Source: an uncultured archaeon
GTDB lineage: Archaea > Asgardarchaeota > Lokiarchaeia > Sigyniarchaeales > SOKP01
DNA: 64,000 bases
Reading direction: 5' to 3'
Assembly (NCBI GenBank): GCA_964632315.1
Contig: CAZWEM010000010.1
Location: 43,333 to 107,332, forward strand
A program made the position numbers and the translations under genes. Below, piece after piece: positions 2,011 to 23,606 of this stretch. The notes beneath the pieces are model-generated. The model was not told the DNA's origin, made no database searches, and saw nothing but the letters and a program-made list of their open reading frames with translations. Each line of letters starts with the position of its first letter. The first letter of the stretch is position 1.

Positions 2011-3048
2011 ATGAAAGCGGCTTACATTCTCAAACATGGAGATCTAAATAATTTAATCGTTGGAGATTTAGATCAACCAAATATTAGTGAAAAAGAAATT
2101 TTAATTGAAACCAAGTTCAGTGCTCTCAATCATATTGATCTTTTTATCATAAAAGGATGGCCAGGATTAGAATTGAAAATGCCTCATATTTTAGGGAGTG
2201 ATGCGAGTGGAGTCGTGGCTGAAGTGGGTTCATCTGTAGCTACTGTTAAAAAAGGAGATAGAGTAGTGATCAACCCAGGTTTAAGTTGTGGAACTTGTGA
2301 TTTCTGCCTTTCTGGAAAACAGAACTTCTGTAAAAATTTTTCAATTATGGGAGAAAATCAATGGGGAACCCATGCTGAGTACTTTGTATTACCCGAAGTG
2401 AATGCCATAAAACTACCTTTAGATGTGAATTATGAATCTGCAGCTGCTGCTCCTTTAACATTCTTGACTGCTTGGAGGGCATTAAAAAGTCAAGCAAACC
2501 TTCAGAATGGAGAAACAATAGTTATTCACGGTGCAGGAGGAGGTGTATCTACTGCGGCTATACAAATAGCTAAATTTTTAGGTGCAACTGTAATTACCAC
2601 AACAAGTAGTGTTAAGAAGGTTGAGATAGCAAAAAAATTGGGTGCTGATTTTGTGATTAATTATAATGAAGATCCAAATTATGATGCTTATATATATAAA
2701 AATATAATGAATCGAGAGGGCGTCGATGTTGTATTAGATAGCGTGGGTAAGCACACATTTAAAAAGAGTTTAAGATTGCTTAAACCGGGTGGTCGTATGA
2801 TTATACCGGGATCTACCACTGGTCCGATGAGTGAAGTAGATCTTAGACAAATATTTTGGAAACAACTAGAAATTAAAGGCACAACAATGAGTAATCAAAG
2901 TGAATTTAGAGAGGTCATGAAACTAATCTTTAAGGCAAAGTTAAATCCAGTAATAGATAGAATTTATCCCTTGAGTGAGATCAAAGAAGCTGAAGAATAC
3001 CTCCAAGAGGGAAAACAGTTTGGAAAAGTTTTACTGAAAATTAAGTAA
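2011..3048 (+). CDS. Zinc-binding alcohol dehydrogenase / quinone oxidoreductase (MDR family)
   Basis: CGTCDFCLSGKQNFC structural Zn loop, GAGGGV Rossmann motif, C-terminal FGKVLL. Confidence 0.9.
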   Translation: MKAAYILKHGDLNNLIVGDLDQPNISEKEILIETKFSALNHIDLFIIKGWPGLELKMPHILGSDASGVVAEVGSSVATVKKGDRVVINPGLSCGTCDFCLSGKQNFCKNFSIMGENQWGTHAEYFVLPEVNAIKLPLDVNYESAAAAPLTFLTAWRALKSQANLQNGETIVIHGAGGGVSTAAIQIAKFLGATVITTTSSVKKVEIAKKLGADFVINYNEDPNYDAYIYKNIMNREGVDVVLDSVGKHTFKKSLRLLKPGGRMIIPGSTTGPMSEVDLRQIFWKQLEIKGTTMSNQSEFREVMKLIFKAKLNPVIDRIYPLSEIKEAEEYLQEGKQFGKVLLKIK

Positions 3049-3719
3049 TAATTCCAAATTGGTTTCGCGTGAATTTCAATACCTTTTGCGAAATAATGGA
3101 TTCAAATCCCCCGTAAAAATGGTCTGCACCCTCAATAATAAATTTTGATTTTGGTTCCATGTAAGAATCGTAATGGAAGTCAAATCTATCAAAAGAAGCA
3201 ATATTATCCTTATCTCCTTGAATAAAAAATTTAGGTTTTGTAGTTTGGGTTGATTCCTTAAATCCTTCTCCCATAAAGTCCCAAGGAAAAGATATTGCAC
3301 AGAAACCTATGACTATTTCGGAATAATTGACAAGGCTACATCCAATAGCAGCTCCATACGAGTATCCACATATTAAAATCTTATCAAAATTTTCATTAGT
3401 CAAATAATCAATGCAAGTTTTAACATCTGTTAACTCTCCATTTCCTTCATATTGTTTACCAGCTGATTTTCCTACTCCTCGAAAATTAAAACGTAGACAT
3501 GAAATATTATTTGTTAGTAATTCATTAAATATGCTCGATATTACATTATTATACATATTACCCCCATATTTTCCCTTTCCTTGAGAAAGTCAAGTGAAAT
3601 TGAGGATGGGGGTGGCAAAGTAATACTATTTTATTTATTTGATTTGTCTTCTTACGAGAAATTTCAGCTTCTAAAACATTATCTTCTCCTTTAATTATTA
3701 TGTTTTTAGAGTCAAGCAT
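3041..3719 (-). CDS. Alpha/beta hydrolase, predicted spliced: exon 1 3719-3601, exon 2 3569-3041 (215 aa)
   Basis: Exon 1 reads MLDSKNIIIKGEDNVLEAE...VLLCHPHP; exon 2 reads (Q)YGGNMYNNV...RFNFRGVGKS...GYSYG...QGDKD...GADHF; catalytic Ser/Asp/His motifs intact; the ORF track shows only the 171-aa downstream part. Confidence 0.85.
3570..3600 (-). other. Predicted 31-nt bulge-helix-bulge mRNA intron
   Basis: Central helix UCCU/GGGA, bulges CA|A and AA|A, inner stem UUUC(A)CUUGA/UCAAGGAAA, exon-exon stem ACCCCC/GGGGGU; removal gives CCU CAA UAU GGG GGU AAU AUG. Confidence 0.8.
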
Positions 3720-3772
3720 AATTTTAATTAAGCATCATATAATATAATAATACTACTAAATAGCTAATAATT

Positions 3773-21104: not shown

Positions 21105-21205
21105 CGCAGACGGAGGGACTCGAACCCCCGAGCGCTTACGCGCACCGGCTTGCTTGAAAACAAGAGCACTCAAGGCCGGCGTCTTACCAGCTAGGCTACG
21201 TCTGC
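21105..21205 (-). tRNA. tRNA-Ser(UGA) with canonical 18-nt intron at 37/38 (21151-21168)
   Basis: Acceptor GCAGACG/CGTCTGC, G discriminator, CCGGC-CT-TGA-G|A-GCCGG, long variable arm, T-arm GGGGG-TTCGAGT-CCCTC. Confidence 0.9.
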
Positions 21206-23501: not shown

Positions 23502-23606
23502 GGGCCAGTGGTCTAGTGGCTATATAGTATGGTTTTCCACATATCAAGTTAAGACGCCACGCTTACACCGTGGATATCGGGAGTTCGATCCTCTCCTGGC
23601 CCACCA
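23502..23606 (+). tRNA. tRNA-Val(UAC) with 29-nt intron in the D-arm (~22/23; 23524-23552), CCA encoded
   Basis: Acceptor GGGCCAG/CTGGCCC-A-CCA; CCACG-CT-TAC-AC-CGTGG; GGGAG-TTCGATC-CTCTC; extra 29 nt in the D-arm. Confidence 0.88.

What the first reader, a model, noticed from the sequence alone, without database searches (positions are those of the whole stretch)
3041..3719. Frameshifting bulge-helix-bulge intron inside a protein-coding (alpha/beta hydrolase) gene
Seen: the minus strand reads ATG(3719)...CAC CCC CAT CCT CA|ATTTCACTTGACTTTCTCAAGGAAAGGGAAA|A TAT GGG GGT AAT ATG. Unspliced, the frame stops 13 codons after Gln40. Removing exactly 3600-3570 (31 nt) gives a 215-aa hydrolase with the intact family motif CHPHPQYGGNMYN and catalytic GYSYG/D/H motifs. 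The junctions fold into a BHB: 4-bp central helix UCCU/GGGA, 3-nt bulges CAA and AAA, a 9-bp inner stem (UUUC/GAAA plus CUUGA/UCAAG, one bulged A) and an outer exon-exon stem (A-U, 2-nt bulge, ACCCCC/GGGGGU). Cutting after the second base of each bulge, the EndA rule, gives precisely the frame-restoring intron. Known: EndA plus RtcB splice BHB introns in archaeal tRNA/rRNA, and the well-established archaeal mRNA case is crenarchaeal cbf5; eukaryotic HAC1/XBP1 splicing uses related cut-and-ligate chemistry. Inference: an Asgard archaeon splices an ordinary enzyme mRNA with its tRNA machinery, splicing is required for expression and could be regulatory, and more such introns may be hidden as apparent pseudogenes.
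Basis: partly seen in the sequence, partly recalled or inferred. Interest (0 to 1): 0.95.

Follow-up and report, generated by a model that had tools for sequence, protein, structure and literature searches.

The report
tRNA-type intron splitting Asgard hydrolase gene
A 31-base insert shaped like the introns archaea cut out of tRNAs interrupts an ordinary enzyme gene of an Asgard (Promethearchaeota) archaeon, and about 29 related lineages keep it at the same codon under selection, so the mRNA is very probably cut and rejoined before translation, which papers I could search report for only one other archaeal protein gene (cbf5).

Summary
Observation confirmed to the base. On the minus strand an alpha/beta-hydrolase gene (ATG 3719, stop 3041) is broken by 31 nt (3600-3570). 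These fold with the flanking exons into a canonical bulge-helix-bulge (BHB).

Comparative evidence makes a spliced intron by far the best reading.
- 25 of 39 genomes of the same Promethearchaeota genus, plus metagenome relatives, carry a 30, 31 or 33 nt insert at the same codon. Each has a frameshift or an in-frame stop.
- Intron-less orthologues read exactly as the predicted splice product.
- The BHB core is 100% paired in 27 distinct sequences, and the hairpin changes by compensatory substitutions.
- dN/dS of both exons is the same with and without the insert.
- The genome encodes two EndA subunits and RtcB.
- Three other genes of this genome carry 29-31 nt BHB inserts: its only uS8 gene, GAPDH and an EF-2 paralogue.

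Regulation is untested. My de novo genome-wide count failed.

Searchable literature reports coding-region BHB introns only in crenarchaeal cbf5. This scan's own notes flag similar introns in other Asgard and DPANN genomes.

Verdict: real, a new member of a known kind, in a phylogenetically important lineage.

The parts
3601..3719 (-). Exon 1 of the alpha/beta-hydrolase gene (Met1 to the first two bases of codon Gln40, CA)
   Evidence: Exon 1 aligns with the N-termini of intron-less orthologues (..LEAE..VLLCHPHPQ). dN/dS is 0.38, against 0.31 in intron-less lineages.
3570..3600 (-). 31-nt BHB intron (A UUUC A CUUGA CUUUC UCAAG GAAA GGGA AA)
   Evidence: A homologous 30/31/33-nt insert sits at the same codon in about 29 distinct sequences.
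3041..3569 (-). Exon 2 (third base of Gln40 to the stop codon 3043-3041). It carries the GYSYG nucleophile elbow, the Asp and the His.
   Evidence: Pfam Hydrolase_4 and Abhydrolase_11. PDB 3TRD aligns from its residue 43. 82 of 85 family-conserved columns are kept. dN/dS is 0.17.
3603..3606 (-). 5' strand of the 4-bp central helix (UCCU, in exon 1: last base of His38 plus Pro39)
   Evidence: It pairs with GGGA 3575-3572 and is 100% paired in 27 distinct sequences. The Pro codon is CCT 28 and CCC 1 in intron-bearers, against CCT 15, CCC 13, CCA 3, CCG 5 in intron-less copies.
3600..3602 (-). 5' bulge CAA; predicted cut between A3601 and A3600
   Evidence: Sequence. The rule 'between the second and third bulge residue' is stated in PMC2738675. 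The product equals the intron-less orthologues.
3572..3575 (-). 3' strand of the central helix (GGGA, in the intron)
   Evidence: Invariant in all intron-bearing sequences.
3569..3571 (-). 3' bulge AAA; predicted cut between A3570 and A3569
   Evidence: In several relatives the bulge is AAG, which gives CA|G, still Gln.
3576..3599 (-). Inner helix and loop (UUUC/GAAA, bulged A3595, CUUGA/UCAAG, loop CUUUC)
   Evidence: The four pairs next to the bulges are 100% paired, with CG/UA swaps at two of them. The apical stem has double changes at four pairs.
3560..3568 (-). 3' strand of the outer exon-exon helix (U3568; AU bulge; GGGGGU)
   Evidence: It pairs with A3607 and 3608-3613. It is 73.5% paired across relatives and constrained by the coding of His-Pro-His and Tyr-Gly-Gly.
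3607..3613 (-). 5' strand of the outer exon-exon helix (ACCCCCA)

Best explanation
The 31 nt at 3600-3570 (minus strand) are an archaeal bulge-helix-bulge intron inside the coding sequence of an alpha/beta-hydrolase gene. In the pre-mRNA the last bases of exon 1 (UCCU) pair with GGGA near the 3' end of the insert. This forms the 4-bp central helix, flanked by two 3-nt bulges, an inner 9-bp hairpin and an outer exon-exon helix. The heterotetrameric splicing endonuclease (two EndA paralogues in this genome) would cut between the second and third base of each bulge. RtcB would join the exons and probably circularise the intron. The result is ...CAU CCU CA|A UAU GGG..., an mRNA for a 215-aa enzyme. 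Without splicing, translation ends 13 codons after Gln40. Shown here: the anatomy, its conservation and covariation, selection on both exons, the exact match to intron-less orthologues, and the presence of the enzymes. Inferred: that cleavage and ligation actually occur, and which enzymes perform them.
For: (1) A strict BHB is readable directly in the sequence. All 24 orthologous inserts tested fold into hBHBh' within 2-5 kcal/mol of their MFE. (2) The insert lies at the same codon phase in 25 of 39 genus genomes that have the gene, and in further metagenome contigs. Lengths are 30, 31 or 33 nt, so length is not held to a multiple of three, and every copy has a frameshift or an in-frame TAA/TAG/TGA. 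(3) 36 intron-less orthologues read CAY CCN CAA/CAG TAY/TTY GG, which is exactly the predicted ligation product. Where the 3' bulge is AAG the joined codon is CAG, still Gln. (4) In 27 distinct sequences the central helix and the four adjacent inner pairs are 100% paired. Six pairs show changes on both sides. The covariation score is 0.183, against 0.114 +/- 0.011 in shuffles (0 of 500 as high) and at most 0.123 for slid registers. (5) The synonymous third base of Pro39, which pairs with an intron G, is T or C in 29 of 29 intron-bearers, while A or G occurs in 8 of 36 intron-less copies. (6) Spliced ORFs are complete (208-225 aa) wherever the contig holds the whole gene. Median dN/dS is 0.38 (exon 1) and 0.17 (exon 2) with the intron, against 0.31 and 0.17 without. 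The window's own copy keeps 82 of 85 conserved columns, including GYSYG, Asp and His. (7) Exon 2 aligns from residue 43 of the 208-aa hydrolase 3TRD, so about 40 N-terminal residues, the size of exon 1, are needed. (8) The machinery is present: two EndA paralogues above the TIGR00324 cut-off and one RtcB at 568 bits. Asgard EndA is described as the broad-specificity (alpha-beta)2 type in PMC5829648. (9) The same genome's only uS8 gene, its GAPDH and an EF-2 paralogue carry 29-31 nt BHB inserts. The uS8 insert is conserved with compensatory changes in three relatives whose sequence I read. An essential single-copy gene therefore depends on the same process.
Against: No full-length, cDNA-like protein at least 85% identical to an intron-bearing lineage is among the 120 best hits of the 5.8-billion-protein search. 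The thermodynamic MFE of the window's sequence is not the BHB conformer (-22.6 against -17.5 kcal/mol), although this is usual for BHB motifs. In the window's copy the outer helix has only one pair directly next to the 3' bulge. The sequences are related, so the shuffle statistics overstate independence. How splicing would outrun coupled translation, with the BHB about 110 nt from the start codon, is unexplained.
Confidence: 0.88

Rival explanations
1. The gene is expressed unspliced as two pieces: a 53-aa N-terminal peptide, plus a 171-aa protein started at the internal Met (ATG 3556), or exon 2 alone. The insert is then a tolerated spacer.
For: Public gene callers annotate exactly this: truncated 167-171-aa proteins starting at that Met for every intron-bearing lineage. 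An ATG follows the insert in most species.
Against: That Met belongs to the family motif GGNMYNN and is equally present in intron-less orthologues. One intron-bearing lineage (L003) has CTG there instead. This rival does not explain the invariant BHB core, the compensatory stem changes or the constrained Pro codon. It also does not explain why the insert boundaries coincide to the base with a frame-restoring cut. A protein without residues 1-44 would lack the HPHPxxGG motif, which sits within the N-terminal 42 residues of 3TRD that exon 2 does not cover.
Confidence: 0.04
2. Insertional pseudogene: a small insertion killed the gene, and what we see is decay.
For: In isolation the window shows a frameshifted gene. 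The window's copy sits on a long branch of the gene tree (0.6).
Against: The insert persists in about 29 diverged lineages (55-86% protein identity). ORFs are intact on both sides, and dN/dS is indistinguishable from intron-less orthologues. The window's copy keeps 82 of 85 conserved columns and all catalytic motifs. The insert itself is under structural selection.
Confidence: 0.02
3. Translational recoding: ribosomes bypass (hop over) the 30-33 nt hairpin, as in phage T4 gene 60, or read through or frameshift across it.
For: A stable hairpin and a nearby stop codon are also features of bypassing sites.
Against: No matching take-off and landing codons exist. The take-off would be CCU or CAA, and the 3' end is GGGAAAA/G with no CCU or CAA. 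The stops differ (TAA, TAG, TGA) and lie at different places. Read-through would insert 10-11 unconserved residues into the most conserved motif. Neither model explains the 3-4-3 bulge-helix-bulge geometry, nor exon bases selected to pair with the insert.
Confidence: 0.02
4. The insert is a copy of a small mobile or repeated element (MITE-like, or a dispersed sRNA gene) that happens to sit in the gene. Its conservation reflects the element's own function.
For: Asgard tRNA introns are reported to be gained repeatedly (bioRxiv 10.64898/2026.10.13.758758). The excised RNA could have a role of its own.
Against: An nhmmer profile of the insert finds only itself in the 4.4-Mb genome (E = 2e-6; the next hits, at E of 0.04 or more, are not introns). 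All copies in relatives are orthologous: same codon and same nadC/ADH neighbours. A mobile origin would not conflict with splicing in any case.
Confidence: 0.03

Closest known systems
BHB intron in the cbf5 (pseudouridine synthase) pre-mRNA of Crenarchaeota (Watanabe 2002; Yokobori 2009, PMC2738675)
   Same: A short endonuclease-type intron lies inside a protein-coding sequence. The predicted cuts fall between the second and third bulge residues. Presence and absence vary among related species. A heteromeric EndA is implicated.
   Different: The gene is different (an uncharacterised alpha/beta hydrolase rather than an RNA-modification enzyme) and so is the phylum (Asgard). The motif here is a strict 3-4-3 BHB, whereas most cbf5 introns are 'unconventional' or relaxed. 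Splicing of cbf5 has cDNA and in vitro support; here there is none. This genome has at least three further interrupted protein genes.
Archaeal pre-tRNA and pre-rRNA BHB introns processed by EndA and RtcB
   Same: The structural motif, intron size range and presumed enzymes are the same. This genome's tRNA genes are heavily interrupted: ARAGORN finds only 29 tRNAs, 18 with introns. Asgard tRNA introns are reviewed in the bioRxiv preprint 10.64898/2026.10.13.758758.
   Different: The host RNA is translated, so exon bases in the helices are also constrained by codons. Splicing must also compete with ribosomes.
BHB intron in the 5' UTR of Haloferax volcanii HVO_1309 (Schwarz 2020, PMC7714728)
   Same: It is an mRNA substrate of the archaeal splicing endonuclease.
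   Different: That intron lies in the untranslated leader and does not interrupt the reading frame. It was shown experimentally (circRNA-seq and an in vitro assay).
Unconventional splicing of HAC1/XBP1 mRNA in eukaryotes (IRE1 cut, RtcB or Trl1 ligation)
   Same: It is non-spliceosomal, protein-catalysed cut-and-ligate removal of a short intron that changes the reading frame. RtcB-type ligation is used in metazoa (established knowledge).
   Different: The nuclease is IRE1 acting on twin stem-loops, not EndA on a BHB. That splicing is a regulated stress switch, and no regulation is shown here. This is a working analogy, not family membership.
COG2945-like alpha/beta hydrolases with solved structures (3TRD Coxiella, 2I3D Atu1826, 2FUK XC6422)
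   Same: Best PDB matches are E = 1e-21 to 2e-10. The query carries the HPHPxxGG motif and the G-x-S-x-G elbow that orthologues conserve.
   Different: None of those genes is interrupted. The substrate of the family is not established.

Membership tests
Archaeal bulge-helix-bulge (EndA-type) intron | Two 3-nt bulges on opposite strands separated by a 4-bp helix | tested here: met
   UCCU/GGGA has 4 of 4 pairs (one U.G). The bulges are CAA and AAA. The helix is 100% paired in 27 distinct orthologous sequences.
Archaeal bulge-helix-bulge (EndA-type) intron | Flanking helices on both sides (hBHBh') | tested here: met
   The inner helix has 9 bp with one bulged A. The outer helix has A-U, a 2-nt bulge and then 6 bp. 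The outer helix is weaker in some relatives (73.5% of cells paired).
Archaeal bulge-helix-bulge (EndA-type) intron | Cuts between the 2nd and 3rd bulge nucleotides give a functional joined RNA | tested here: met
   The rule is stated in PMC2738675. The predicted product restores a 215-aa ORF and equals the sequence of 36 intron-less orthologues at the junction.
Archaeal bulge-helix-bulge (EndA-type) intron | Structure maintained in evolution (covariation) | tested here: met
   Six pairs have double changes. The covariation score exceeds all 500 shuffles and all slid registers. The sequences are related, so the shuffle figure is not a probability.
Archaeal bulge-helix-bulge (EndA-type) intron | Splicing endonuclease and RNA ligase encoded by the host | tested here: met
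   Two EndA paralogues (207 and 205 aa, each with N- and C-terminal domains) and RtcB are present.
Archaeal bulge-helix-bulge (EndA-type) intron | Spliced RNA, excised or circular intron, or in vitro cleavage observed | not testable with these tools
No cDNA-like full-length protein was found.
cbf5 mRNA intron family (Crenarchaeota) | Located in cbf5 at the catalytic Asp codon; homologous intron | tested here: not met
   The host gene is an alpha/beta hydrolase. The mechanism is the same, but this is not the same intron family.
Alpha/beta hydrolase fold (Pfam Abhydrolase_11 / Hydrolase_4; 3TRD-like) | Family HMM match above the curated cut-off | tested here: met
   Exon 2 alone scores Hydrolase_4 29.8 bits (cut-off 27) and Abhydrolase_11 29.0 bits (cut-off 27). 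3TRD matches at E = 1.3e-21.
Alpha/beta hydrolase fold (Pfam Abhydrolase_11 / Hydrolase_4; 3TRD-like) | Nucleophile elbow G-x-S-x-G plus acid and His of the triad | tested here: met
   GYSYG, QGDKD and GADHF lie in columns at least 90% conserved among 54 orthologues. Their catalytic role is inferred, not assayed.

The most novel reading that the evidence does not exclude
This Promethearchaeota genus, and probably other Asgard lineages, routinely places tRNA-type introns in protein-coding genes, including essential ones such as uS8. EndA/RtcB mRNA splicing would then be a standing part of gene expression in the closest prokaryotic relatives of eukaryotes. That would imply a way to keep ribosomes off unspliced transcripts, and it would be a source of intron gain shared with the heavily interrupted tRNA genes.
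Probability: 0.5. Interest if true: 0.9.

Novelty: new member of a known kind. Interest (0 to 1): 0.75.

Why it matters
Endonuclease-type introns in archaeal coding sequences are in print for one gene, cbf5. A 2020 paper still calls it the only case, apart from one 5' UTR intron (PMC7714728). Here a strict BHB intron sits in an ordinary enzyme gene of an Asgard archaeon, with unusually clean comparative support, and the same genome's only uS8 gene needs the same treatment.

If confirmed at the RNA level, four things follow.
- Asgard archaea would splice mRNAs with the EndA/RtcB machinery, whose eukaryotic descendants (TSEN, RTCB) also act on mRNAs.
- It raises the question of how splicing and coupled translation are ordered in a cell without a nucleus.
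- Current annotation systematically truncates such genes: all public calls for intron-bearing copies are 167-171-aa fragments. This distorts gene-content and pseudogene counts for Asgard genomes.
- It offers a tractable set of gains and exact losses within one genus for studying how such introns arrive.

Tried and rejected

2. cDNA-like proteins. Among the 120 best hits of the protein search, none of full length is at least 85% identical to an intron-bearing lineage. All close hits are exon-2-only calls.

3. De novo genome-wide census.
- A BHB pattern scan combined with ORF fusion and frame-shifted-junction controls gave no enrichment of in-frame joins.
- A second scan with hairpin and duplex energies showed an apparent excess. 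That excess came from 19 GC-rich, probably contaminant, contigs and vanished once they were removed.
- The number of mRNA introns in this genome therefore remains unknown.
- The scans also missed uS8 and GAPDH. The first required 4 of 4 central pairs. The second allowed 3 of 4 but required exon open frames too long for these two genes.

4. Paralogue-BLAST validation of joined peptides. The refined pass gave one hit (the EF-2 paralogue) and zero in controls.

5. Repeated-element test. The nhmmer profile of the intron finds only itself.

6. Neighbouring GTPase and tRNA-Val inserts.

7. Careful maximum-likelihood tree. It did not finish in time, so only the quick tree is used. That tree does not resolve the number of gains and losses.

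8. Considered and rejected (see rivals): translational bypassing, read-through, a split protein and a pseudogene.
Full report
**Observation**

On the minus strand of the window an ORF starts at ATG 3719 and reads ...C H P H P Q. It then runs into 13 unrelated codons and a stop (53-aa ORF 3558-3719). A second ORF in another frame (3041-3556, 171 aa) encodes the rest of an alpha/beta hydrolase. Exon 2 matches Pfam Hydrolase_4 and Abhydrolase_11 just above their cut-offs. It aligns from residue 43 of the 208-aa solved hydrolase 3TRD, so about 40 N-terminal residues are missing from it, which is the size of the upstream ORF.

Deleting exactly 3600-3570 (31 nt) gives a 215-aa ORF with CHPHPQYGGNMYN.
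- central helix U3606-A3572, C3605-G3573, C3604-G3574, U3603-G3575;
- 3-nt bulges CA|A (3602-3600) and AA|A (3571-3569);
- inner helix UUUC/GAAA, bulged A3595, CUUGA/UCAAG, and a 5-nt loop;
- outer helix A3607-U3568, a 2-nt bulge, then ACCCCC/GGGGGU.

RNAfold gives -22.6 kcal/mol for the 66-nt region, z = -3.1. The minimum-energy fold keeps the inner and outer stems but redraws the centre. The BHB-constrained fold is -17.5 kcal/mol.

**Who it is**

The window is contig C10:43333-107332 of a 4.45-Mb, 119-contig genome of GC 0.32. Orthologous loci retrieved from public genomes are titled Promethearchaeota or Promethearchaeia, formerly Lokiarchaeota, with a few MAGs labelled as other Asgard phyla. 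The GTDB genus holds 42 species genomes. 'Asgard archaeon' is therefore right.

**The insert in relatives**

The hydrolase is found in 39 of the 42 genus genomes. Twenty-five of them have an interrupted frame and 14 a continuous one of about 212-218 aa. Reading the DNA shows the following.
- The interruption is always at the same place, after the second base of the Gln codon that follows His-Pro-His-Pro.
- The insert is 30, 31 or 33 nt long. The in-frame lengths all carry a TAA, TAG or TGA, so no version can be translated through.
- Metagenome contigs closer to the window's own lineage (86, 80 and 68% identity) also carry it. One at 71% lacks it exactly. All sit between the same nadC and Zn-ADH neighbours.
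- Two genomes of other genera of the order lack the insert.
- All 36 intron-less sequences read CAY CCN CAA/CAG TAY/TTY GG, which is what cutting after the second base of each bulge and ligating would produce.
- Where the 3' bulge is AAG instead of AAA, the joined codon becomes CAG, still Gln. One lineage with a GAA 5' bulge would give Glu.

**Structure under selection**

In an alignment of 28 intron regions (27 distinct), the central helix and the four inner pairs next to the bulges are paired in 100% of sequences.
- Two of the inner pairs switch between C-G and U-A.
- Four apical pairs show changes on both sides.
- The covariation score is 0.183, against 0.114 +/- 0.011 for shuffles (0 of 500 as high) and at most 0.123 for registers slid by 1-3 columns (the earlier 24-sequence version is).
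- These sequences are related, so the shuffle result is supportive rather than a probability. The slid-register control, which keeps relatedness, agrees.

Each of the 24 sequences tested can adopt the full hBHBh' fold within 2-5 kcal/mol of its MFE, although the apical hairpins differ.

Exon bases are constrained too. The third base of Pro39 pairs with an intron G. It is T in 28 and C in 1 of 29 intron-bearers, and both pair with G. Intron-less copies use T 15, C 13, A 3 and G 5.

**The gene is alive**

- Spliced ORFs are complete (208-225 aa) in every lineage whose contig holds the whole gene.
- Median pairwise dN/dS is 0.38 (exon 1) and 0.17 (exon 2) in intron-bearers, against 0.31 and 0.17 in intron-less lineages.
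- The window's copy lies on a long branch of the quick gene tree. It still keeps 82 of 85 columns that are at least 90% conserved among the others, including GYSYG, the Asp and ADHF.
- This rules out a decaying pseudogene, and it means exon 1 is still read as protein.

On the quick tree intron-bearers fall into about four clusters, needing four changes at minimum. Well-supported branches do not force more than one origin. The similar intron ends suggest one gain with several exact losses, but this is not resolved.

**Machinery and context**

The genome encodes two EndA paralogues of 207 and 205 aa. Each has the N- and C-terminal endonuclease domains, and both score above the TIGR00324 cut-off. 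It also encodes one RtcB at 568 bits. This fits the (alpha-beta)2 broad-specificity EndA reported for Asgard archaea (PMC5829648).

ARAGORN finds only 29 tRNAs in this 99%-complete genome, 18 of them with introns. That agrees with a 2026 preprint reporting that Asgard tRNA genes are heavily and repeatedly interrupted at BHB sites.

The hydrolase is not alone in this genome.
- uS8: the only match to Ribosomal_S8 is split into profile positions 2-46 and 92-126. A 29-nt insert (C35:14462-14490, minus strand) joins ..YIGE|FERYDDGR.. through a BHB with 3 of 4 central pairs.
- The uS8 match is split in the same way in four other genus genomes. In the three of these I could read, the 29-nt insert is present with compensatory changes. 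uS8 is continuous in 36 other genus genomes.
- GAPDH has a 31-nt insert inside INGFGRIGR.
- An EF-2 paralogue has a 30-nt insert before EQERGIT. Its joined peptide aligns across the junction to a paralogue.

A cell whose sole uS8 gene is interrupted in this way must remove such inserts from mRNA.

**Rivals**

- Split expression from the internal Met. The Met is a family motif also present in intron-less genes, and one intron-bearer lacks it. This model leaves the BHB conservation unexplained.
- Translational bypassing. It lacks matching take-off and landing codons.
- Read-through. It would insert 10-11 unconserved residues into the best-conserved motif.
- Repeated element. The intron profile finds only itself in the genome.

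**What is missing**

No transcript data could be reached, and no cDNA-like full-length protein was found. Splicing itself is therefore inferred.

My attempts at a structure-first genome-wide count failed. In-frame joins were not enriched over frame-shifted controls once 19 GC-rich contaminant contigs were removed. I cannot say how many genes are affected. Nothing here bears on regulation.

**Comparison with the known**

In the searchable literature the only coding-region BHB intron with experimental support is crenarchaeal cbf5. A 2009 paper notes that others were merely predicted, and a 2020 paper repeats that cbf5 is the single case beside a Haloferax 5' UTR intron. Four further searches found no report of mRNA introns in Asgard archaea.

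This scan's own unchecked notes flag similar inserts in this genome and in other Asgard and DPANN genomes. I tested three of the same-genome leads (uS8, GAPDH, EF-2) and they hold.

**Verdict**

This is a real feature. It works like the cbf5 intron and like tRNA introns, it is not homologous to the cbf5 intron, and it is a new member of that kind in a new phylum and a new gene.

Noticed in passing
G000 C35:14462-14490 (minus); L172: The genome's only ribosomal protein uS8 gene is split by a 29-nt BHB insert that joins YIGE|FERYDDGR. The uS8 match is split in the same way in 4 other genus genomes. In three of them (G004, G016, G057) I read the insert and found compensatory changes; in G003 I did not locate the junction. 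uS8 is continuous in 36 genus genomes.
   Followed up: partly
G000 C9:35473-35503 (minus); L116: GAPDH is interrupted by a 31-nt BHB insert inside the NAD-binding motif (MAKRVSIN|GFGRIGR). The central helix has 3 of 4 pairs with a G.A at the outer end, as in uS8.
   Followed up: partly
G000 C25:29359-29388 (minus): An EF-2-family paralogue has a 30-nt BHB insert (UCAG/CUGA helix, bulges AUU and AAG) just before EQERGIT. The joined peptide aligns across the junction to a paralogue on C59.
   Followed up: partly
Public protein records (P0002, P0003, P0005, P0007, P0040, P0059, P0088, P0091, P0092, P0109 and others): Every public gene call for an intron-bearing copy of this hydrolase is a 167-171-aa fragment starting at the internal Met. 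The intron is invisible in current annotation, and the proteins are N-terminally truncated in databases.
   Followed up: yes
G000 contigs C36, C74, C78, C80, C82, C87, C90, C98, C103, C105, C106, C108, C109, C111-113, C115, C117, C118: Nineteen contigs (140 kb) have GC 0.43-0.70 against 0.32 for the rest. They are probably bacterial contamination of the MAG, and they produced a false signal in my energy-based intron scan.
   Followed up: partly
window 21105-21205 (-) and 23502-23606 (+): These are intron-containing tRNA genes: tRNA-Ala (Rfam 43.7 bits, 101 nt) and tRNA-Gly (ARAGORN, 26-nt intron). Genome-wide, ARAGORN finds only 29 tRNAs, 18 with introns, so many tRNA genes are probably too interrupted to be detected.
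   Followed up: no
window 3720-3772 and 3041-3048: Only 53 nt separate the divergent start codons of the hydrolase (3719, minus) and nadC/QRPTase (3773, plus), which suggests leaderless or very short-leader mRNAs. The 3' ends of the hydrolase and the convergent Zn-ADH (2011-3048) overlap by 8 nt.
   Followed up: no
hydrolase, uS8, GAPDH and EF-2 introns: All four inserts lie inside or next to the most conserved peptide motif of their protein (HPHPQYGG, YIGEF, INGFGRIG, switch I). This could be ascertainment bias, or conserved exon sequence may favour a stable BHB.
   Followed up: no
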